A stretch of 63,790 nucleotides of DNA, filler included, from Basidiobolus ranarum (Eukaryota): NCBI GenBank assembly GCA_040143965.1. It is 38 parts of 38 records of this genome, joined end to end, with 100 filler letters (N's around TTAATTAATTAA, not from the genome) between each part and the next. Parts side by side here need not be neighbours in the genome. Positions count along the whole stretch, not along the records: positions 45,466 to 47,041 come from JASJQH010004798.1; positions 47,142 to 48,717 come from JASJQH010004799.1; 36 more parts are not named here. The stretch is one strand, 5' to 3'. Below are positions 13,507 to 60,443 of this stretch, piece after piece; position 1 is the first letter of the stretch; every line of letters begins with the position of its first letter. The translations under genes were made by a program, and so were the position numbers. The notes beneath the pieces were generated by a model. It ran no database searches and was not told the origin of the DNA. It saw nothing but the letters and a program-made list of their open reading frames with translations.

Positions 13507-15043
13507 GTTAGTTTGCTTACATCCTGACAAAACTATAAATGTCAACTGAATACTCAATAAATTAACAAGTGAAAACCACCAATTCCTCTAATTCTCCAAA
13601 CCACATCCAAAAGGCTCCCAAATCCTTTAATAGGTTATGAGTCCCAAGCTTGCACTCTCTGTAATGTCTACTTCTCAATTTTATGGAACCTTTCCCTCTT
13701 CTGAAAAATTGAATGGTATCAATTAACAAGTTTGAAAAATTAAAATGAAAATGCTGCTGCAAGAAAAAGGACTTTGGTACACTGTTGTAGGAGAAGAAAA
13801 CAATGCAAAACTAACAGAAACCAAAGTTTTACTACAAGTTAAAAAAGAACAAAGTGCTTTTAACACAATTTGTCTTAATGTTAAAGACAAATTGCCAATT
13901 CAATGTTCAAGAGCTAAAACTGCCAAGAAGGTATGGAAAGCCTTGGAAGACATCTACCAAGCATGTTCTGCTGCCTACAAAATATTTCTAAGAAGACAAT
14001 TGTTTAACTTAAAGATGAAGACAGGAGAAGACATTAAATCACTAATTGATAAAATAACTATTTAGTGAATGAAATGGAATGTATTGGAGTATGTACCACT
14101 GATCAAGATATCATAGTTACAGTCCTGAATAGCCTGCCACACAAGTTTCAGAGCCTAGTAATGGCTCTAGAATCAAGAATTAAAATTTTTACCTAAACTT
14201 ATGTATTTGGCATACTTCTGGATGAAGATTTACACAAATCAGGACTCAACCAAAAGAATGAGGAAAATGCTTTAATAGGATACGAGAAACCTTCCTATAA
14301 AGGTCTACAGCAATTTAATAACAAAAGTAACACATTCTGTGATTACTGTAAAAGAACTGGCTATTTAAGCAAAGATTGCTTTAAAAGAATTGTAAAAGAA
14401 GAAAAACATACTGAATCTGGAAAAGTGGTTGCAACAGAAGATCACTTGTTCATATCTGTGCTATCTATGACTACCAACAAGGATTCTCAGATGCAGTATA
14501 TCGATTCTGGAGCTTCCTAACATTTCACAAATGAAAAACATTGGTGTGTGGAATATGAAGATATCCCTATTACAAAGGTTTTCATGGGAGATGATCACAC
14601 ATTGGATGCTATTGGAATGGGAACAATTTAAGTCAATTTAACTGGAGCTTCTGAAGAGAAAGCTTATACCTTTACTGATAAAAATGGGAAGTTTTTAGCT
14701 TTAGGAGAAAAGGATCAAAACTTATACAAACTTACATGGAATTTAACCCCTCAACCAAAATGGAAATTCATGAGGGTAGTATATATGGAAAACAAGCCAG
14801 GCAACCATTCAAGAGCCCTGGTTTAAACAAATCTATCAAAAAATTGGATATAGTTCTTTCTGATTTAGGTGGACCTATGCAAAATTTATCTTTAGGCCAA
14901 AAAAGATATTTAATCACATTAATTGGTGATTATACAAAATACTCTTGGGTTAACTTTATGGAAAGAATACAAGAAGCTCTCTCTATCTTCAGAGATTTTA
15001 AAACACTTGTGAAGACTGATACTAGAACTAAAATGAAGAATAT
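13507..15043 (+). mobile_element. Copia family B 5' part: LTR end (13632), PBS, gag (ATG 13664), Zn knuckle, protease, integrase start; LTR A inserted at 15044
   Basis: MKMLLQEKGLW, CDYCKRTGYLSKDC, YIDSGAS, SDLGGPMQ; many stops and frameshifts. Confidence 0.92.
13633..13645 (+). promoter_or_regulatory. Primer-binding site complementary to the anticodon stem-loop of initiator tRNA-Met (half-tRNA priming)
   Basis: GGTTATGAGTCCC directly after the LTR end; variants GGTTGTGAGCCCC (minus, from 21445 down) and GGATATGACCCC (48118); consensus GGTTATGAGCCC is the reverse complement of GGGCTCATAACC. Confidence 0.8.
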
Positions 15044-20248: not shown

Positions 20249-21793
20249 ACATATATCAGAAACAGAAAGCAACGTATCTATAGCCCCTATATTCTAAATA
20301 GGAATATCTCTATATCTATATAACAAGTATGTCTTATTACCCCCACATATCTATTATATGTTATTACACAAACTCCTGAATATCTCAAACAATTGATTTA
20401 CTTCTCTACTATATAAGTCACCATGTACTCTAAGAATAAAGTAACTAAAACACACAATCATAAGTTGCTTCTAATACACAAAGTCTACCCCCATTATGTT
20501 AAGATAGGTTGAGTCTTGATTTGCATAAATCTTTATCCAGAAGTCTGCTAAATACAAAATTTAAGGTCAAATTTTGAATTCTTGGTTCTAGAGCCATTAT
20601 TAGGCTCCGAAACTTGTGTGGCAGGCTATTTGGGACTGTACCTATGATATTGTGATTGGTAGTAGGTATCCCAATGCATTCCATTTTGTCCACTGAAATA
20701 GTGACTCTATTATTTAGTGATTTAATGACTTCCCCCAGCTTCATATTTGAGTTAAAGAATTACCTTCTTAGAAGCACCTTGTTAGCAGCAGAACTTGTTT
20801 GGTAGGTGTCTTCCAAGGCTTTCCATATGTTCTTGGCAGTTTTAGCACTTGAACATTGAATTTGCAATTTGTCTTTAGCTTTAAGACAAATTGTGTTAGA
20901 AGCACTTTGTTCTTTTCTAACCTGGAGTAAACTTTGATTTCAGAAAGTTTTGCATTGCTTTCTTCTCCTACAACAGTGTCCCAAAGTCCTTTTTCTTGCA
21001 GCAGCATTTTCATTTTGGTATTGCAAACTTGATAATTGGTTCCATCCAATTTTTCAGAAGAGGGAAAAGTATTGGAGGATCTTGACATAATGGGGGTAGA
21101 CTTTTGGTATTAGAAGCAACTTGTGAAAGTGTGTTTTAGTAAAATTATTCTTAAAAGTATATGGTGACTTAAATGGTAGATTAATAAATCAATTGTTTGA
21201 GATATTCAGGAGTTTATAAATAAGATACAGTAGATAAGTGGGGCAAATAAGACATACTTGTTACAAAGATATAGAGATATTCTGGTTTTGAATATGGGGC
21301 TATAGATATGTTGCTTTCTGCTTCTGATATATATCTCATATCTAAAGTTAACTATGATGTTGAATAAAGATTAATTATCCAACAAAAAGTTCCATAAATT
21401 TGAGAAGTAGACATTACAGAGATTGCAAGCTTGGGGCTCACAACCTGTTAAAGTATTTGGGAGCCTGTTCAAAGTGGCTTGGAGAATTAGAGAAATAGGT
21501 GGTTTTCACTTGTTGATTTATTGAGTAGAAAGTTGACATTTATAGTTTTGTCAAGATGTGAGCAAACCAACATGTAGAATTTGTTGAGGAAGGTCCCTGG
21601 AACATATGTGTAAAGTTTGGGGCTTCTAGCACAAGCTTGAAACATCTATATATCTGAGAAATTGAAAGTTGGTAAAAATATTGTAAGCAAATTCCTATTG
21701 AAAAAAATGGAAAATATCTTAGTGAAACATAAGATAACTAAGTACCAAGCTATATATGACTATATAGGTGTTTTGGCAATGCCAATTTCAACA
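20249..21793 (-). mobile_element. Partial LTR D (20249-~20500); Copia B gag with 5' LTR (21446-21793) and PBS
   Basis: gag EKLDGTNYQV...MKMLLQEKGLW; LTR TGTTGAAATTGG...TTTAACA followed by the PBS. Confidence 0.88.
21070..21384 (+). mobile_element. Complete solo LTR family D (315 bp) with AAAAG target-site duplication, inserted in the Copia B gag start
   Basis: TATTGG...AATAAA...CCAACA flanked by AAAAG at 21065-21069 and 21385-21389; empty site visible near 13664-13700. Confidence 0.9.
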
Positions 21794-30247: not shown

Positions 30248-30804
30248 NNNNNNNNNNNNNNNNNNNNNNNNNNNNNNNNNNNNNNNNNNNNTTAATTAAT
30301 TAANNNNNNNNNNNNNNNNNNNNNNNNNNNNNNNNNNNNNNNNNNNNCTATTTGATTAGAACGACATGTTAATGGATGGATGCCTCGTACAACCTCTGTA
30401 ATAACTGGAACATACCATCTTGAGCTGACTTTGGATGAATTGGAAAGAGGGAGCTACTCAAGAAAATTGCCAAACTAATATGGTCACCGAGAGAAGCATC
30501 TGATTGGGCAATCGAGAACATGGTCTTCTCCGAGCCATACTTTTCAATTTATTTTTGCAATACTGAGCAGGATGGATATCTATAATCAACAAGCTCAAGC
30601 AGATAATCAAACTGCCTTACTACTTGAATAAGTTGTTTTGCACCTCGAATGGGAATGGAGGTACGTACTGTACTGGAGATGAACTTTTTTTTTATTTTTC
30701 CTTGAAAAAAAATTGAAATGTGTTGTTGGGGGAGCCTTAGAATAAAACCGAGAGATTACTAAGTTTGTTCCTTACGAAGCAACTTTTGACTTCTGTGATT
30801 CGTC

Positions 30805-31707
30805 ATGTTGGTTACTATTCCCACTTTTCTTTTACCCACACCACCCAGCTCCTGGACCGCTGGTACCGGCAGCAAGGTCCATGCTAGTGTCTCAGCCCCT
30901 TCCAAGCGTACTTTGGAACCTGTTGGTCGTCACTTCGTCGGTTTCGCCAGACGCAAGTTCCACGAACGTACCTACTCCGAAGATGAACGCATCGAAAGTG
31001 CCAAGAACGCTGGTAATGACGATGACGAGGAGGATTTGAGTGAAGATGAAGAAGAATCCCGTGACCTTTTGGAAAGCGACCCTAAGGACTGGAAGGAGCA
31101 AGATCACTATGAAGTCCTCGGTTTGAGCAAGTACCGTTATAAGGCTGATGAGAAGCGTATTATTAAGGCTCACCGCAAGAAGGTTCTTAAGCATCATCCT
31201 GATAAGAAGGCTGCTTCTGGTAACATCAACGATGATGCCTTCTTCAAGTGCATTCAAAAGGCATTTGAGATCTTGATGGATCCCATTAAGCGTCGTCAAT
31301 TCGATTCAGTTGACCCTGGATTGCCTGATATTGAGCTTCCTTCCAAGTCCAAGGATTTCTTCGAATCCTTCGGTCGTATTTTCGAATTGGAATCTCGTTT
31401 CTCCAACAAACAACCTGTCCCTGTTCTCGGTGATATGAACTCCGTTCGTGAGGATGTTGAAGCTTTCTATGACTTCTGGTATAACTTTGACTCTTGGAGA
31501 ACTTTCGAGTACCTTGACAAAGAGTCATCAGAAACTGCTGACAACCGTGATGATAAGCGTTATTACGAGAAGAAGAACAAGGCTGAGCGTGCCCGCAGAA
31601 AGAAGGAGGACAATGCCCGTCTTCGTGAACTTGTAGATGCTGCTCTTAAGAGAGATCCTCGTATCGCTATCTTCAAGGAGGAGGAGATCGGAAGAGCACC
31701 AAATTAA
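30805..31707 (+). CDS. ZUO1: Zuotin (ribosome-associated Hsp40 J-protein), intronless here, C-terminus truncated by an adapter chimera
   Basis: LEPVGRHF, DPKDWKEQDHYEVLGL, HHPDKK, FYDFWYNFDSWRTFEY, DPRI. Confidence 0.95.
   Translation: MLVTIPTFLLPTPPSSWTAGTGSKVHASVSAPSKRTLEPVGRHFVGFARRKFHERTYSEDERIESAKNAGNDDDEEDLSEDEEESRDLLESDPKDWKEQDHYEVLGLSKYRYKADEKRIIKAHRKKVLKHHPDKKAASGNINDDAFFKCIQKAFEILMDPIKRRQFDSVDPGLPDIELPSKSKDFFESFGRIFELESRFSNKQPVPVLGDMNSVREDVEAFYDFWYNFDSWRTFEYLDKESSETADNRDDKRYYEKKNKAERARRKKEDNARLRELVDAALKRDPRIAIFKEEEIGRAPN
31685..31699 (+). other. Illumina TruSeq adapter remnant AGATCGGAAGAGCAC
   Basis: Exact 15-nt match to the adapter start, at the switch from zuotin coding sequence to unrelated AT-rich DNA. 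Confidence 0.9.
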
Positions 31708-38859: not shown

Positions 38860-39591
38860 GGCAACCTATGATAGCAATTTCTACTACAGAACATGAGTTT
38901 ATGGCTGCCTCTGCTACTACACAAGAAGCTATGTTGTTTAGGAAGTTATTTACAGACCTAGGATATATGCAAAAATGTCCTACTACTGTAATTGAAGATA
39001 ATCAAAGTTGTATTTCATTAGCTAAAAACTCTATATTTCATTCTTGAACAAAACATATAGATATTAGGCATCATTTTCTAAGAGAAGCAATAGAGAGTAA
39101 TATAATTGAACATGTCTTTTGCACTATTAAAGTAAAGATTGCAGACACCTTAACCAAACCTTTAGCTAAAGCCCAACTCAAAATATTAAGATATAAGTTA
39201 GGTTTAAGAGAAATACATAATAATTTGTTTAGTGGGAATGTTGCAATCAGGTAGAGAGCAACTCATTATTTAGTACTTGGTTGATTCATATTCTGATTAT
39301 TTAGCACTTAGTTCTGTCATTGAAAAATGTGTGTTTATTGCTCCAATTGATATTTCTTTCAATTAGTGCATTTTATCAATTATCACTATTTTTGTAAATC
39401 TTCTCTAAAGCATCTGTATTTTTCATCCATCCTTATCAGGCATGTTTGTTATGATGTAAGCACATCCAATAGTTGTATTTCATAGTATACTAGAAACAGG
39501 ACCTATTCAATTTTATAAAAGTTAAGTGTTGAACTCAAAAATCTAAAACCTGTCCAAAACACTTCCTATTCCACTAAGCACTTTTATCATA
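38860..39591 (+). mobile_element. Third Copia family: RNase H end, PPT and LTR family G (39239-~39591), followed by a Copia protease fragment
   Basis: AISTTEHEFMAA, EDNQSCISLAKN, ADTLTKPL; AGTGGGAA then TGTTGC; similar LTR end at 38752-38840. Confidence 0.8.
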
Positions 39592-46851: not shown

Positions 46852-48155
46852 TGTCATGATTCTGATCTCGGCATACTGATCCACTGCATATGGAACTCTT
46901 CTATTATTAGATTATGACATCATATCTACTGTGCCATCCCTTCTCGGCAATCTGGTGTCAGTTCATCCAGATTACCTTATATGGAAGTCATGTTCTTTGG
47001 AACATTCCATGAAACCTAACCAATCATGTCATCCCTCACATNNNNNNNNNNNNNNNNNNNNNNNNNNNNNNNNNNNNNNNNNNNNTTAATTAATTAANNN
47101 NNNNNNNNNNNNNNNNNNNNNNNNNNNNNNNNNNNNNNNNNCAAGTTTGAAAAATCTATATATCTGAGAACTTCTAAGTTGGTAAAAACATTCTAAGTAA
47201 ATTCCAATTGAGAATAATTGATAATATCTTAGTGAATTATAAGATAACTAAGCACTAAGCTATATATGACTATATAGGTGTTTAGGCAATACTAATTTCA
47301 ACAAGTGCAAGTGTTGAGTTTATTGTCTTTATCATATTTGTTTCCTCTATCTTTATACACCTAACTATCTCATATATCACATATAAGTTAGTTAAGATTA
47401 CTTAGTCAAATATCACATTATTGCAAATTAGAACATATATTATATACATATGTGAATAATATGAGAATTAGCAATTCTATATTGGAAATTCAAACTTGTC
47501 CAAATTACCCCAAAGATAGCACATTTTACTCCCACAGATGTTCTGGGCACAACCCCAGTGTTAGTTATCTGTATTTCTACCAAAATGCACAAATGCTTTA
47601 TTTTTGGACAATAAATAACTATCTCACAAAGCTTTTCACTACCCACTTTTCTAAAGTACCTGCAAACAGCTCATATCTTCCAATAGTTTAATATGTCTTA
47701 ATTAGGATTTCAAGATAGAACATTGGTTCACCATGATCAGTGATTTTGGATTTGGCTGGTAAGCTAAATCTTGTTGAAAATAGCATTGTATAAACACCTA
47801 TATAGTCATATATAGCTTAGTGCTCAGTTATCTTGAAATTCACTAAGATATTATCCATTATTATCAATTGGAATTTAATTAGTATATTTTTACCAACTTA
47901 CAAGTTCCTAGATATATAGTTCTGTCAAACTTGTGCTAGAAGTCCCAAACTTGAACACACATTCCTGGGACCTTTTTAATGAATTCTTCACGTTAGTTTG
48001 CTTACATCTGGACAAAACTTTAAATGACGACTGAACACTCATTCAATCAATAAGTGAATATCACCAATTTCTCTAATTCTTTACATTACTTCCAACAGAC
48101 TCTCAAATACTTGAGCAGGATATGACCCCAAGCTTGCACTCTGTGATGTGTCTAC

Positions 48156-48438
48156 TATTGAAATTATTTAGGGAGAAATATAGGTCTGGCCAGTATTTGA
48201 ACCTGGGACCTCCTTCACTCTATCAAGGTGCTCTAACCACTGAGCTACCAGTCCTTGTATGCTATGCCTATATTACTAGGGAACCTTAACCTAGTCTGTC
48301 AATGTATGGTACTTTTGGCATTTTAGCTATACAAGCAACTGATTGGCCTTAGACTTTGTGTTCAGATGCAGTCACCATACTCCATATTTTCCTCTTTGGG
48401 AATTACTGCTAGTATCACAAGTGACCAGACTTTCAACA
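48156..48438 (-). mobile_element. 283-bp solo LTR containing a tRNA-like sequence, inserted at the start of Copia B gag
   Basis: Inverted termini TGTTGAAA...TTTCAATA (minus strand); 5-bp TSD TCTAC/TCTAG at 48151-48155 and 48439-48443; absent from the homologous gag starts at 13664 and ~21410. Confidence 0.8.
48183..48254 (-). ncRNA. tRNA-like / pseudo-tRNA Pol III unit inside the LTR
   Basis: GGACTGG TA GCTC AGTGGTTA GAGC A CCTTG ATAGAGT GAAGG AGGTC CCAGG TTCAAAT ACTGG CCAGACC folds as a cloverleaf with A box (TAGCTCAGTGG) and B box (GGTTCAAAT); single mismatches in acceptor, anticodon and T stems; atypical anticodon loop. Confidence 0.8.
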
Positions 48439-48817
48439 TCTAGTTCCCAGATTTATGAAACTTTTCCCTGCTCTGAAAATTGGATGGGACCAATTATTAA
48501 GTTTAAAAAATGACAATGAAAATGCAGCTGCAAGAAAAAGGACTTTGGGACACTGTTGCAGAAGAAGAAAACAATGCATAACTTTCTGAAACCAAAGTTT
48601 GAAAGTGCCTTTGACATAATAAGCCTTAATGTTAAAGACAAATTGCTTAATCCATGTTCAAGAGCTAAAACTACCAAAAAGGTATGGGAGGCCTTGGAAG
48701 ACACCAACTAAGCAAATNNNNNNNNNNNNNNNNNNNNNNNNNNNNNNNNNNNNNNNNNNNNTTAATTAATTAANNNNNNNNNNNNNNNNNNNNNNNNNNN
48801 NNNNNNNNNNNNNNNNN

Positions 48818-53845: not shown

Positions 53846-55283
53846 GTTTAAAGTCTCTTTGGGTTCCTTGGTAAACTTTCAATAAACAGAAATATGAGTA
53901 CAAATCCATAAAGTCGTTTTGAAATGGGGTAGCGGTAATAAGTAGCATTTTGCGAGTGTAAAGTTTTATAATACTATTGAAACTCAAGCCAGCGGAGTTC
54001 TTTAGAACATCTGCTTCGTCAGCTATAATACGCTGGAACTTAATATGCCAAAGAGGCGAGTTACCATCAATGGCTTCAATACTCAACGTTCCATAAGTGG
54101 TGATAACTATCCGCTTTTGTTCCAGATCTTCAGGTCGCATAGCTCGGTATCGCCCATGAAATAAGTGAATATCATCTTGAGGGATGTTGGTTTTTTCCAT
54201 AATCTCCTCCATCCAATTGAGGATTAAACCGTGTGGAACCACAATTAAATTGGGACGCAATTCCGGTGTTTCTAATATCAGACTTAACACTTGTATTGTT
54301 TTTCCTAATCCCATGGCATCAGCTAACAACACATTATGATAGCGCGCTTCGGTCCGTTTAAGCCATAATACTCCAACTTTCTGATAATCCTTCAATTGCA
54401 CCTTCAAATCAGATAAATATCTGAGTGGAGTACTCTGTGTTGAAAAATTATTTGCTGTAAACCCAATCTCATCGGTAATTTGACCCAAAAGCTGTCGTGT
54501 GCTAAGATGTTGCGCTTCATCAGGAGGATAAACCCACATTCGGTTGTCAACATCGTAAATAAAACTAGTATTGGCATCGTTGGTATATCGAATTAAATTG
54601 CCAAACTCATTCACCAACCCTATAAATGTCGTGCCTAAGGCGCAAATTTTGGAGTGGATATAGAGTTTCTCCCAAGTGTGTGACGTCAAGTTCAAACAAT
54701 AAAATTCCTTAAGCATACTGTCTTCTGTAGGGTTCTGCTGAGACTGATATCCTCCGAGAAGAAATAATTGGTCATAAGCATGAGTGAGTGTTGCCCAACT
54801 ACGTGCAGATGGCATATTTTGTGGATTTCCCAAAAATCCACTTGTCTGGATGGTAGTAACAGTGCATTGGCTGTGGTCGTCTCGAAATTCCATCACCTGA
54901 ATAACACTAGGATCTACATTTTCAAGAGTAGTGAGATAAAATCCACCAAATACAAATAGCCGTGCATCATCGGCAGCACAACTGTTTCCACCAATTGGCG
55001 ATCGGATTGCATTTACGGGAAAGATGGGGATTGCTTGCGTTTGACAACCAATATTACTATAGGTAGCAAATTGCTGTATATAGCAATTTGGTCTTCCTAT
55101 TCTCCAGTCAATTGTTAAATTCCTCTGCTGTAAACGCTCATGTGAGAAGCCACCAAACATGATGACGCACTTCATCGAGGGCGGAACTGCCATGCATGAA
55201 TAACCTCGTCCAGATATCTCGGCTAACGTTATCATAAGTGGTCCGATCTTTGTGCGTAACTCATAATAGGATACAGCTGACAT
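53846..55283 (-). CDS. Kelch-repeat beta-propeller fused to an SNF2-family ATPase N-terminal lobe; intronless, 3' truncated
   Basis: Kelch GG motifs VIMFGG, LFVFGG, PSARSWATL...LFLLGG; SNF2 motifs LKDYQKVGVLWL, LLADAMGLGKT, LIVVP, IVITTY, IIADEAD, LLITATPFQN. Confidence 0.85.
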
Positions 55284-55520
55284 TGAATAGCTAAGAGAAA
55301 TTTTCAAACGTGTAATCTCTTGTTAGTAGCACTCTATTTATTTAACCATCTATGATGGTACAGCAAAACCAATACAAGCCTAATAAGATGAATATTGCAT
55401 AATAAGCTTCATAATTTTTANNNNNNNNNNNNNNNNNNNNNNNNNNNNNNNNNNNNNNNNNNNNTTAATTAATTAANNNNNNNNNNNNNNNNNNNNNNNN
55501 NNNNNNNNNNNNNNNNNNNN

Positions 55521-57195: not shown

Positions 57196-57306
57196 CTAAG
57201 TAAATTCCTTATGAGAATAATGGGTAATATCTTAGTTCAATATAAGATAACTAAATACTAAGCTATATATGACTATATAGGTGTTTAGGCAATGCTAATT
57301 TCAACA
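57196..57306 (-). mobile_element. 5' end of LTR family B
   Basis: GGCAATGCTAATTTCAACA terminus. Confidence 0.8.
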
Positions 57307-58187
57307 GTTTATACGCTAGCTTGATATGTGTATATGCATCATTTAGCCATCAATATTATACAAAGCTGCTTCACTGATTGATGGGATTCCAAACATGTCA
57401 CCAAGATATGTATCCTTCCAAAGTTGTTGAGCCAACCATGGGATTATCTAATGTGTGTGAAGTAATCACTTGATCTACTTTAAGGTTTGAAGAGAATTCT
57501 CAAAAGGTCGACTAGTATTTAATCAAGGGAAAGCCATAAGAAACGAGGGGGGTCCCACTCTTTTTAAAGATAAACCATTAAGCAAGACATATGTATAATT
57601 CATCTCAAGCTTATCCTGAATGAAGTGAAACTTTTCAATTTCAACCTACATTGTCATAGGGTGAATATAGCCTGGACTAACTTCTGATATATACTATTTA
57701 TTCAGCAATACTTGTGGAGAGTGTTACTTCATTTAACATATGCTTCTCTAGATATTCTGCTAAACAGATGACAACATTAAACACTAGAAAAAGTATACTG
57801 AAATGTAGACATCCTCCAACACTACACTCAGCAAGGTAATAATCATGGAAAACATCACCTCCACACATTGAAGCAATGGTTGAAGGGAACACCGATAGAT
57901 ATGTAGATAAGTTACACGTTTACTCATCATCCACTGTACACTACCAGCCGAGCAGATAATTCAATCAATATACTTTCAACCCAACCAGCAAGTGAGTTAG
58001 GTAGGTCTCAATGCCTTGCCCATGGTTCAAGTCATAGTTTAATTAACTATTAAAGAGATTGAGGTACTTAAATGGAAAGAGGGTAGTGGGAAATATTGTG
58101 TATATATGTGGGGGTGAACTAAGGCGTATTCGCTAGAAATCGTAAGTAAGAGATATGGTATTATCAAAATGGACTGGAGGGGTTCTT

Positions 58188-58769
58188 TTAGGCAGTAGAT
58201 TCATCATGGGTATCAACCACTCCCTTACCATTTGGCTTTTGCTTACGTTCACGTTGATAAAACTCGGAGAGAGTCTTTTGGGGAATACGATTAAGAAGTT
58301 CCTTAGGGAAGATACGAAGGAGTGACCATGCGTGATCAAGAGATTCGAAAATCGTTCTAGATTCGTAGTGTCCTTGAGCAATGAAGGTTTTCTCAAATTT
58401 GTCCAAGAATTCCAACGATAATTTATCTTCTTGGTTGAGTGCTTCTTCACCTACGACGGCCTTCATAGCAGCAGCATCACGACCAATAGCATATTTGGCA
58501 TATAACTGATTGGAAACATCACCATGATCCTTACGGGTCATACCTTCACCGATGGCGGATTTCATGAGACGGGAGAGTGATGGCAATACGTTAATGGGTG
58601 GGTAGATTTGACGATTGTGAAGTTGACGATCGACGTAGATTTGTCCCTCGGTAATGTAACCAGTCAAATCAGGAATTGGATGAGTAATATCATCGTTAGG
58701 CATGGTCAGAATTGGAATTTGAGTGATAGAACCGTTTCTACCTTCCACACGACCGGCACGCTCATAAAA
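58188..58769 (-). CDS. VMA2: V-type H+-ATPase subunit B, C-terminal part
   Basis: [73 protein letters not shown]. Confidence 0.97.
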
Positions 58770-58869: not shown

Positions 58870-60443
58870 TCTTGAATCGATTGAACTTGCATTCGATGGA
58901 CCTGGAATGTGGATTCTTCCATGGGTACGACTCTTATCTTCAACTCACCTTCTGAATATGAGCAGCGACTGCGGAGTAGATCGTGGTGATTTGCAAGAGC
59001 ATGGATGGCTTGATATAACTTATCCTTGGTCGTTGGATCACGCAATCTCAAAAGCCAGGACTGATTGAAGTGATGTATATTTCCCTCAGTGGCATCCAGG
59101 AAGCGTCTCTGAATCGGTGTTAGAGTAAGATAACCGTTATTGCTGGGGAGTGATACAACTCGGGTCATATCCAAAGATGCAGCCACTGCAGCAAGAGAAC
59201 GAATAGTAGGGTTTTGCATAATTTGCTTCACCGAGAGTGAAATGCCATTTTGACGACTTAAAGAAGACACTCGAATGGCAGAAATGGAGTCTCCACCTAG
59301 TTGAAAGAATGTATCTTCAGCTGAGATACTGGTGGCCGGAATATTCAGTGTTTCAGACCATATCGCTAATATTTTCTTCTCCAAAGGTGTTGTTACTTGG
59401 CTACTAAGATCATTACCGCACTTCGACATTCTTAAGATTTCCTCCAGACTTGAAGACGAGAAGAGATCTGATAGTTTACGACGATCAGTTTTGCCACTCG
59501 AGTTGATTGGAATGATGTTGAGTGGTAACCAAATATTTGGAATCATATATGATGGCAGTTTTCTCCTAACAGTATCTTTCAGCTCCTCAATGTACGCAAA
59601 GGCAGTAACCGCTTGTGATCCGGTTAGAAAACTAGGTGCAGAAAGTGAACTTTCCATGTCACTGAAGGTCAAAAATGCCACCAACGAGTTATGATTAGCT
59701 TTCTCATCAGTCACTAATGGAAGTATACATGCTCTGACTAGCTTGGGGTGTTCATGCAGTGCATGCTCTATCTCATCCAACTCAATTCGTAGCCCATTTA
59801 TCTTAACCTGGTTGTCTATTCTTCCCATCAGCTCCACTGATCCATCTTGATTGAACCGTGCAAGATCCCCACTTCTATACAGACGTTCCTCCATTACAAA
59901 CGGACTCGACACAAAGGCCTTCTCTGTCAGATCAGGTCTGTTTAGATAACCTCGAGCTAGTTGAGGTCCAGCAACACAAAGCTCTCCAACAACTCCGAGT
60001 GGAGCTGGATGGTGGTCTTCACCAAGAATATATATTCTGTTATTTCCAACGGGTCTTCCAACATTGGAGCACGATGTTACTGATTCCATTTGGGTATTGA
60101 CAGTCATCAGAACTGTGGATTCTGTTGGACCATAGCCATTGCTTATGTCAACATATGGCGACCAAATGTTTCGAGCTGTGGTCGACAACATCTCTCCAAT
60201 GAACATCAAGTTCTTCACTGTGGGCAACTTAAGTGGATCGACCATTGTGGCAATGGTAGGAGTCAACATCAGAAAAGTAATATTTAACTTGCTGATCCAT
60301 TCCTCTAAGTTTGTGAGTAAGTAATCCTTTCGAGCCATTGCCACTGAAGCACCAATAGCAAGTGGGGCATATATCTCGAACACCGAAGCGTCAAAAGTGT
60401 AGTTGGCGAATTGCAGGACTGAATCCTTGGCCGTAAGCTGATA
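58870..60443 (-). CDS. Non-ribosomal peptide synthetase fragment: adenylation, thiolation and probable epimerization domain; open at both ends
   Basis: FDASVFEI, NGYGPTE, GELCVAGPQLARGYL, YRSGDL, GRIDNQVKINGLRIEL, NSSGKTDR; FFQLGGDSI; LTPIQRRF...HHFNQSWLL...HHDLLR. Confidence 0.95.

What the first reader, a model, noticed from the sequence alone, without database searches (positions are those of the whole stretch)
48151..48443. Solo LTR carrying a tRNA-like Pol III unit: candidate tRNA-in-LTR retroelement
Seen: a 283-bp insertion at the start of Copia B gag, absent from the homologous gag starts at 13664 and ~21410. It has LTR-type inverted ends (minus strand TGTTGAAA...TTTCAATA) and a 5-bp TSD (TCTAC/TCTAG). 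Its 3' third is a 72-nt cloverleaf (48254-48183) with A and B boxes. A TAATATA lies about 15-20 nt upstream, and there is no T4+ terminator between the tRNA and the LTR end. The anticodon loop (ATAGAGT) is atypical, and an AGA/Ser reading conflicts with the missing long variable arm. Known: Cassandra TRIMs carry 5S rRNA promoters in their LTRs, and I recall a tRNA-in-LTR group (Helenus) having been described, so it should be compared. Inference: this is a small non-autonomous LTR element transcribed by Pol III from a captured tRNA, reading through into its internal domain and using Copia or Gypsy proteins in trans.
Basis: partly seen in the sequence, partly recalled or inferred. Interest (0 to 1): 0.75.

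Follow-up and report, generated by a model that had tools for sequence, protein, structure and literature searches.

The report
Helenus-type tRNA LTR hitchhiking on Copia
This is the leftover end-repeat of a tiny parasitic jumping gene that carries a tRNA look-alike as its probable promoter, a kind described in 2024, and the one extra is that its copies in this fungus are often spliced to three different helper retrotransposons, which points to the helpers it borrows proteins from.

Summary
Confirmed: 48156-48438 (-) is a 283-bp solo LTR with a 5-bp TSD, inserted in a dead Copia gag, and it holds a tRNA-like module (Rfam 42.8 bits). It is one of at least 251 copies in a Basidiobolus-like fungus. 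The full element is LTR + 51 bp (PBS matching the host initiator-tRNA anticodon arm, then PPT) + LTR, about 617 bp. That meets every Helenus feature testable here (Kojima 2024); fungal Helenus was listed only from Basidiomycota. The scan noted this family before on other DNA of this genome.

Two details fail as family traits: TAATATA and the ATAGAGT loop are minority variants. Pol III transcription is untested.

New here: a census of hybrids joined at the shared PBS. 10 of 21 internal regions sit behind an LTR of one of three Copia families, and 7 of 23 tRNA-LTR/PBS junctions lead into Copia gag. No Copia gag start carried another Copia family's LTR (0 of 87). This fits co-packaging and plus-strand transfer between the parasite and several helpers, but no hybrid could be checked by TSD or reads.

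Verdict: new member of a known kind, with a testable lead on its helpers.

The parts
48156..48438 (-). Solo LTR (283 bp) of a Helenus-type TRIM; ends TGTTGAAA...TTTCAATA
   Evidence: 41 full-length matches at 94-100% among 43 listed
48151..48155 (+). Left copy of the 5-bp target-site duplication (TCTAC)
48439..48443 (+). Right copy of the target-site duplication (TCTAG, one mismatch)
48182..48254 (-). tRNA-like module (LTR positions 185-257); no long variable arm; mismatches A3:A70 and G31:G39 are family-wide
48236..48247 (-). A box (TAGCTCAGTGGT)
48192..48202 (-). B box region (GTTCAAATACT in this copy)
48217..48223 (-). Anticodon-like loop, ATAGAGT here (2 of 54 copies), CTAGAGT in 41 of 54
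48156..48181 (-). 26-nt tail from module to LTR end; longest T run is 3 in 50 of 54 copies
48269..48275 (-).
47772..48117 (+). 5' LTR of the host Copia B element (its own LTR, unrelated to the tRNA LTR)
48118..48129 (+). Decayed PBS of the host Copia B element (same type as the TRIM PBS)
48444..48717 (+). Decayed Copia B gag continuing after the insertion, up to the contig end
   Evidence: family assignment by Pfam on a sister copy

Best explanation
A solo LTR left by LTR-LTR recombination of a non-coding TRIM of the Helenus type (283-bp LTR + 51-bp internal region + 283-bp LTR). Shown: the anatomy, the copy number, the 5-bp TSDs, and a PBS complementary to the anticodon arm of the host initiator tRNA. 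Inferred (about 0.65): Pol III starts at the A/B-box module in the 5' LTR and reads through PBS, PPT and the 3' LTR, meeting no T4 run. Inferred (about 0.9): the RNA is packaged, reverse transcribed from a half-tRNA primer and integrated by Copia proteins. Inferred (about 0.6): it is co-packaged with RNAs of at least three Copia families, and plus-strand transfer between the two genomes at the shared PBS makes the hybrids seen. A mixed dimer opened at one LTR or the other would give each hybrid class. The tRNA-like module is a promoter remnant, not a working tRNA.
For: 251 matches of a 26-mer of the module, reversed control 0. TSD: 15 exact and 22 with at least 4/5 among 31 copies without PBS/PPT; shuffles mean 1.55, max 7. 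22 internal regions, all PBS + spacer + PPT in about 51 bp. Host tRNA-Met with initiator features holds the 14-nt complement of the PBS. Copia B, C and X (copia gag by Pfam) share 13 nt of that PBS and similar PPT/LTR starts, while their LTRs give no BLASTN match to the tRNA LTR. Hybrids: 10 of 21 internal regions follow a Copia LTR; 7 of 23 tRNA-LTR/PBS junctions lead into Copia gag; 0 of 87 Copia gag starts carry another Copia LTR (Fisher p 9e-9). Helenus as defined in PMC10886601.
Against: A and B boxes are no more conserved among copies than the rest of the LTR (0.026 and 0.044 against 0.035). The absence of T4 is within chance. Only one uninterrupted two-LTR copy with both LTRs nearly whole was seen, and it shows no TSD (L128); the other whole copy is interrupted and has a 4/5 TSD (L066). 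No contig holds both ends of a hybrid, so no TSD test was possible, and the right flank of L055 matches none of three left flanks of the reciprocal class. A short-read assembly under-represents plain LTR-internal-LTR copies, so 10 of 21 is probably too high as a fraction. 9 of 31 tested copies have 3 or fewer TSD matches.
Confidence: 0.85

Rival explanations
1. Same element, but the hybrids arose in the chromosome (ectopic recombination or gene conversion at the 14-17 shared bases, or recombination of one-LTR circles into a Copia PBS), so they say little about packaging.
For: L131 and L067 look like one internal+LTR unit placed into a Copia B PBS with the PBS doubled. Recombination is the usual account of tandem TRIMs (PMC7215508, PMC11899658, passages seen). 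No TSD proof was possible.
Against: The three Copia families share the same PBS and are more numerous, yet 0 of 87 gag starts carry another Copia LTR (95% upper bound 3.4%). Circle insertion does not by itself give the classes that lack the rest of the Copia or of the TRIM. 14-17 shared bases are short for homologous recombination (own knowledge).
Confidence: 0.25
2. The hybrids are assembly or library chimeras.
For: The assembly is very fragmented (13,754 contigs), many contigs end inside this LTR, and reads could not be checked.
Against: 16 loci with different flanks and private mutations on both sides; junctions always at the PBS; only 14-17 exact shared bases, shorter than usual assembly words (own knowledge); no Copia-to-Copia chimeras.
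Confidence: 0.1
3. An autonomous Copia family uses the tRNA-bearing LTR as its own LTR.
For: 8 loci have tRNA LTR + PBS + Copia gag.
Against: 83 of 87 gag starts carry the family's own LTR. Of 54 full-length tRNA LTRs, the 10 preceded by a PPT-like word all follow the TRIM internal region, none a Copia RNase H end. The one candidate 3' end (L051) was an unrelated repeat.
Confidence: 0.05
4. The tRNA module is a passenger (an old SINE or tRNA insertion) and the element is transcribed by Pol II from U3 or from neighbouring Copia promoters.
For: No excess conservation of the boxes among copies; no transcript data; PMC10886601 itself says Pol III function of Helenus is unvalidated and proposes an origin by SINE insertion.
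Against: The module is only 44-49 of 73 bases like the best-scoring host tRNAs, yet both boxes and 19 of 21 stem pairs are kept, which suggests long-term selection on the master lineage. No family-wide TATA box.
Confidence: 0.3
5. A SINE, or a working tRNA-Ser(AGA) gene family.
For: ARAGORN calls Ser(AGA) in 25 of 28 loci.
Against: Always inside the LTR, no tail (30 of 30). No long variable arm, unlike host Ser tRNAs. A3:A70 unpaired in 64 of 64 and 31:39 unpaired in 63 of 64 modules. No T4 terminator, whereas 161 of 163 host tRNA gene calls have one within 25 nt.
Confidence: 0.03

Closest known systems
Fungal Helenus (TRIMp3), e.g. LTR-1_PGr, Helenus-2_MLP, Helenus-6_CroRib; Kojima 2024, PMC10886601
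   Same: TRIM under 1 kb; tRNA-like module with A/B boxes in the 3' part of the LTR; TGTTG...CAATA/CAACA ends; PBS GGTTATGAGCCC (48 occurrences in the supplement); G-rich PPT; 5-bp TSD; many solo LTRs; false Ser(AGA) calls; loop word CTAGAGT in several rust families.
   Different: Host is Basidiobolus-like (Zoopagomycota), while Table 1 lists only Basidiomycota among fungi. The internal region (51 bp) is shorter than any fungal value in the part of Table S1 that I read (75-354 bp), though Helenus-1_CCin-I looks about as short. By eye most rust families have a T4 run after the module; this one has none. The paper infers helpers from PBS likeness and one shared internal sequence; it reports no hybrids in the parts read.
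Cassandra and Ajax TRIMs
   Same: Small-RNA-derived Pol III promoter inside a TRIM LTR; tandem copies sharing an LTR (L015).
   Different: They carry 5S rRNA sequence; Rfam found only tRNA here. Pol III transcription is validated only for Cassandra (PMC10886601).
Ty5 and Drosophila copia half-tRNA priming
   Same: PBS complementary to the anticodon stem-loop of initiator tRNA.
   Different: Those are autonomous and have ordinary LTRs.
Chimeric TRIMs of sugar beet (PMC13570524) and LTR swapping in soybean (Du et al. 2010, seen only as a reference title)
   Same: LTRs exchanged between families; template switching proposed; 'decentralized' use of any helper proposed.
   Different: In the passages seen, the beet chimeras are between TRIM families and the helper idea is a hypothesis. 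Here the exchange is between a TRIM and three coding Copia families with unrelated LTRs, always at the PBS. The soybean case, as I recall it, involves partners with homologous LTRs.

Membership tests
Helenus (TRIMp3) | TRIM shorter than 1 kb with two LTRs | tested here: met
   L128: 616 bp, LTRs 96.8% identical; 11 internal regions directly follow a tRNA LTR
Helenus (TRIMp3) | tRNA-derived sequence with A and B boxes inside the LTR | tested here: met
Helenus (TRIMp3) | PBS and PPT between the LTRs, no coding capacity | tested here: met
   about 51-bp internal region in 22 copies
Helenus, fungal type | 5-bp TSD | tested here: met
   15 exact 5-bp, 0 exact 4-bp, 0 exact 6-bp among 31 copies
Helenus, fungal type | PBS complementary to a tRNA anticodon arm (mostly initiator Met), shared with Copia | tested here: met
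Helenus (TRIMp3) | Module does not encode a working tRNA | tested here: met
   by sequence only: no variable arm, two fixed mismatches, no terminator
TRIMp3 | Transcription by RNA polymerase III | not testable with these tools
   also unvalidated for published Helenus
Helenus, rust lineage | Common descent with Pucciniales Helenus | tested here: inconclusive
   shared words of 17-20 nt with rust families, but the 20-mer also occurs in an oyster family; no alignment could be run; the paper treats Helenus as born several times
SINE2 | tRNA head at the 5' end, variable flanks, A/T-rich tail | tested here: not met
   30 of 30 motif loci inside the LTR
Cassandra / Ajax | 5S rRNA-derived sequence in the LTR | tested here: not met
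   only RF00005 at E up to 1
Autonomous Copia | This LTR at both ends of gag-pol | tested here: not met
   83 of 87 gag starts have their own LTR; no Copia 3' end directly before a tRNA LTR among 54 copies

The most novel reading that the evidence does not exclude
This TRIM is a generalist parasite that is routinely co-packaged in the particles of three Copia families with unrelated LTRs, needing only the shared half-tRNA PBS and the PPT/att ends. The 16 PBS-junction hybrids are fossils of plus-strand transfer between the two packaged genomes, so they name a TRIMp3 element's helpers directly and offer a general way to find helpers for other TRIMs. A further, less likely extension (about 0.2): the shared loop word, PBS and ends mean that fungal Helenus is one lineage reaching back to the Zoopagomycota-Dikarya split or moved between them.
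Probability: 0.55. Interest if true: 0.6.

Novelty: new member of a known kind. Interest (0 to 1): 0.4.

Why it matters
The element itself adds a fungal phylum to Helenus and warns that a few hundred 'tRNA-Ser(AGA)' calls in this genome are transposon pieces. The hybrids matter more. PMC10886601 says it is not known how a TRIM's dependence on its helper is maintained, and PMC13570524 proposes, without direct evidence in the passages seen, that non-autonomous elements use any available helper. A TRIM joined at the PBS to three Copia families that do not join each other is the pattern co-packaging predicts, and long reads can test it.

Tried and rejected
1) L051 as a Copia RNase H end with a tRNA LTR: its upstream DNA belongs to another repeat; only 10 PPT-like bases precede the LTR. 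2) L140/L232 as a Copia-U3/TRIM fusion that would map the start site at position 181: it is a nested Copia B solo LTR with its own TSD. 3) L066 as a hybrid: it is a TRIM with a Copia B solo LTR inserted in its PBS; dropped from the 10-of-21 count. 4) TATA box: minority variant. 5) Depletion of T4: P 0.35. 6) Excess conservation of the boxes: none. 7) Parent tRNA: none clear among 70 distinct host tRNA sequences; best-scoring Cys, Ile, Thr at 44-49 of 73; a 15-nt T-arm word is shared with Ser tRNAs. 8) A by-eye match of 56 of 72 bases to the module of Helenus-1_SMo (text) looked striking, but unrelated host tRNAs reach a median best of 51 and a maximum of 61, so it is not evidence of kinship. 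9) Metagenome scan for the PBS-gap-PPT anatomy: one hit, L218, with no tRNA and no LTR pair by eye, a chance match. 10) Copia B polyprotein search for a rust-like neighbour: best hits 35-40%, mostly unnamed, uninformative. 11) Pfam gave nothing for three short pol-end frames, so the RNase H call in L055/L133 rests on the translated motif. 12) Exact look-up of two window proteins found nothing. 13) The two tRNA LTRs 50 bp apart on C2117 are separate insertions, not a TRIM.

Full report
Context. The window is 38 contigs of about 1.58 kb joined by N/TTAATTAATTAA spacers; the finding lies in the piece 47142-48717, which is G000:C4799. A peptide synthetase frame in another piece has its best named relatives in Basidiobolus ranarum (8 of the top 9 hits, 49-62% identity), and a zuotin frame has best hits at 64-66% among Mortierellomycota, Zoopagomycota and Taphrinomycotina. 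The host is therefore Basidiobolus or a close relative, assuming that the assembly is one organism.

Observation. The 283-bp insertion, its ends and the TCTAC/TCTAG duplication are as described. Sister Copia B copies at about 13664 and 21410 are empty at this site. Rfam gives tRNA at 48182-48254 (-), 42.8 bits, and nothing else. Two details are minority forms: TAATATA-type upstream word in 3 of 54 full-length copies and the ATAGAGT loop in 2 of 54, against CTAGAGT in 41.

Family. A search with the LTR gave 401 candidates, 40 scored, and 43 matches, 41 of them full length at 94-100%. A 26-mer from the module has 251 matches with up to 2 mismatches, reversed control 0; this is a lower bound. ARAGORN found the module in 28 of 28 loci given to it. 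In the first 30 loci returned for the 26-mer the module lay inside the LTR every time; one LTR was interrupted by a nested Copia B LTR and one was cut at its 3' end. Of 54 distinct full-length copies, 23 were set aside (21 next to a PBS or PPT, 2 with short flanks); of the other 31, 15 have an exact 5-bp TSD, 22 at least 4 of 5, and none an exact 4- or 6-bp TSD; shuffles gave a mean of 1.55 and at most 7. Mean pairwise identity is 93.4% (85-99%), so the copies seen are not very young.

Full element. 22 copies of an internal region of about 51 bp were found: PBS, spacer, PPT. L128 is LTR-internal-LTR, 616 bp, with LTRs 96.8% identical and a clipped 3' end without TSD; L066 has LTRs 89.4% identical, a 4/5 TSD and a Copia B solo LTR in its PBS; L015 is a tandem chain. 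The host has a tRNA-Met with initiator features (features recalled) that holds the 14-nt complement of the PBS in its anticodon arm. The sense strand of L128 has no T run over 3, while the three Copia LTRs have 2, 3 and 6 runs of T4 or more; but 35% of shuffles also lack T4. 161 of 163 host tRNA gene calls (overlapping loci, duplicates included; 2 of 165 dropped for short flanks) have T4 or more within 25 nt, so T4 probably terminates Pol III in this host and the element would be read through.

The module is not a working tRNA by sequence: among 64 of 69 distinct modules that could be put in register, pair 3:70 is A-A in 64 and pair 31:39 is unpaired in 63, while the other 19 stem pairs hold in 60-64. 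It lacks the long arm of host Ser tRNAs, and no host tRNA among 70 distinct sequences is a clear parent. The boxes are not more conserved among copies than the rest of the LTR, as expected for neutral decay, so this gives no support for promoter function.

Hybrids. Three Copia families (B, C, X; copia gag by Pfam) use the same PBS, sharing 13 bases with the TRIM plus 1-4 bases of LTR end; their LTRs give no BLASTN match to the tRNA LTR. Of the 22 internal regions, 11 follow a tRNA LTR, 1 is the interrupted L066, and 10 follow a Copia LTR directly: B in L130, L131, L136, L067; C in L055, L133, L141; X in L015, L132, L143 (85-95% identical to a family copy, over 85-126 bases only in L130, L132, L143). 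In L055 and L133 that LTR is a 3' LTR behind an RNase H-like tail and PPT; in six others non-PPT flank precedes it; two are unresolved. Conversely, of 23 tRNA-LTR/PBS junctions among the 87 matches (the rest, by their matched letters, are Copia LTR ends; 11 of them were opened and all lead into X gag), 14 lead into the TRIM internal region, 5 into Copia C gag, 2 into Copia B gag and 2 are unclear; L258 adds a third B case. That makes 16 hybrid loci. As a control I took the 30 best gag starts of each family: 87 of 90 had enough upstream DNA, 83 carry their own LTR, 4 the tRNA LTR (one of them was the query) and 0 another Copia LTR. Fisher p is 9e-9 for 10 of 21 against 0 of 87. Two internal copies (L134, L140) share a 3' breakpoint and may not be independent.

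Mechanism. Inferred: Pol III starts near LTR position 185, runs through PBS, PPT and the 3' LTR; the RNA enters Copia particles; the 5' part of initiator tRNA primes; Copia integrase makes the 5-bp TSD; LTR-LTR recombination leaves solo LTRs (about 11 LTR motifs per internal region). Particles hold two RNAs, and the second strand transfer moves plus-strand strong-stop DNA to the other end of the minus strand (PMC6894440, passages); that it pairs through the PBS is textbook knowledge. If a TRIM and a Copia cDNA exchange partners at this step, the products are Copia LTR + TRIM, tRNA LTR + Copia, or a mixed dimer opened at either LTR, which covers all classes seen. Unlike LTRs cannot be inherited through a normal cycle, so each hybrid locus should be a separate event (inference). 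A TRIM must always share a particle with a helper, which explains why it swaps and the Copia families do not.

Comparison. I read PMC10886601 parts 1-4 and 6 of 6 of the main text (abstract to discussion, tables, legends), supplement parts 1, 4 and 10 of 11 and two supplement searches. The element meets each Helenus feature that I could test; Pol III use is untested here and there. Table 1 lists no fungus outside Basidiomycota, and 'Basidiobolus' does not occur in the supplement. Searches for a prior report listed nothing on Helenus in Basidiobolus by title or abstract; one search listed 3 of 9 and 4 of 5 matching papers; searches for such hybrids listed nothing that matched; Repbase and most subscription journals were not searched, and bioRxiv supplements are closed. 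From PMC13570524, PMC11899658, PMC7215508, PMC6894440 and bioRxiv 10.1101/2025.06.16.659975 I saw passages only. Du et al. 2010 was seen as a reference title only. Word matches to rust Helenus modules (17-20 nt, loop CTAGAGT) exceed those to host tRNAs (15 nt), but the same 20-mer is in an oyster family, so kinship is open.

Earlier notes. The scan has noted solo copies of this family many times and single LTR-gag joins several times. I had found the hybrids before reading them. Their summaries do not mention the reciprocal class, the three helpers or the control.

Verdict. Real; a new member of Helenus in a fungal phylum not listed for it; interest 0.4, carried mainly by the hybrids.

Noticed in passing
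window 21070-21397 (-): The Copia B copy used as an empty site carries another solo LTR of about 320 bp (TGTTGGATA...CCAATA, TSD CTTTT) some 25 bases further into gag.
   Followed up: no
L174, L176, L184-L210: Host tRNA genes lie in dense mixed clusters, up to 8 different tRNAs in 3 kb, with recurring gene orders on several contigs.
   Followed up: no
L211-L216 (G000:C6957, C7711, C1407, C639, C220); similar scores on C6885, C1188, C9726: tRNA-Arg(TCG) is expanded: near-identical copies, several per contig and in both orientations, with unlike flanks and T runs behind.
   Followed up: partly
L051:189-198 (-); L005 start: A tRNA LTR preceded by only the last 10 PPT-like bases, inserted in an unrelated repeat; may be an unprocessed plus-strand primer end or a deletion.
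   Followed up: partly
L025:1501-1520; L231: tRNA LTR followed by a PBS-like word and then sequence that is neither TRIM internal region nor gag.
   Followed up: no
L233-L243, L274-L303: The Copia X LTR end resembles the tRNA LTR end (3 mismatches in the 30-base junction pattern), and its PPT/LTR start is the closest to the TRIM's; X may be the ancestral donor of the ends, yet 0 of 29 X gag starts carry the tRNA LTR.
   Followed up: partly
L248:2-1495 (-), L260, L237, L239: In Copia B and X the gag frame is open through the PBS, whose ATG is in frame; in the Copia C copies translated it is not.
   Followed up: no
window 39514-39587 (-): ARAGORN's tRNA-Pro call lies at the end of a Copia LTR-like stretch and looks spurious by eye.
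   Followed up: no
window 58870-60443 (-), 30799-31707 (+), 57196-58769 (-), 53846-55322 (-): Host gene pieces: a peptide synthetase, zuotin, a frame that looks like V-ATPase subunit B, and a frame with a helicase-like C-terminal part behind an unrecognised N-terminal part (the last two by eye).
   Followed up: partly
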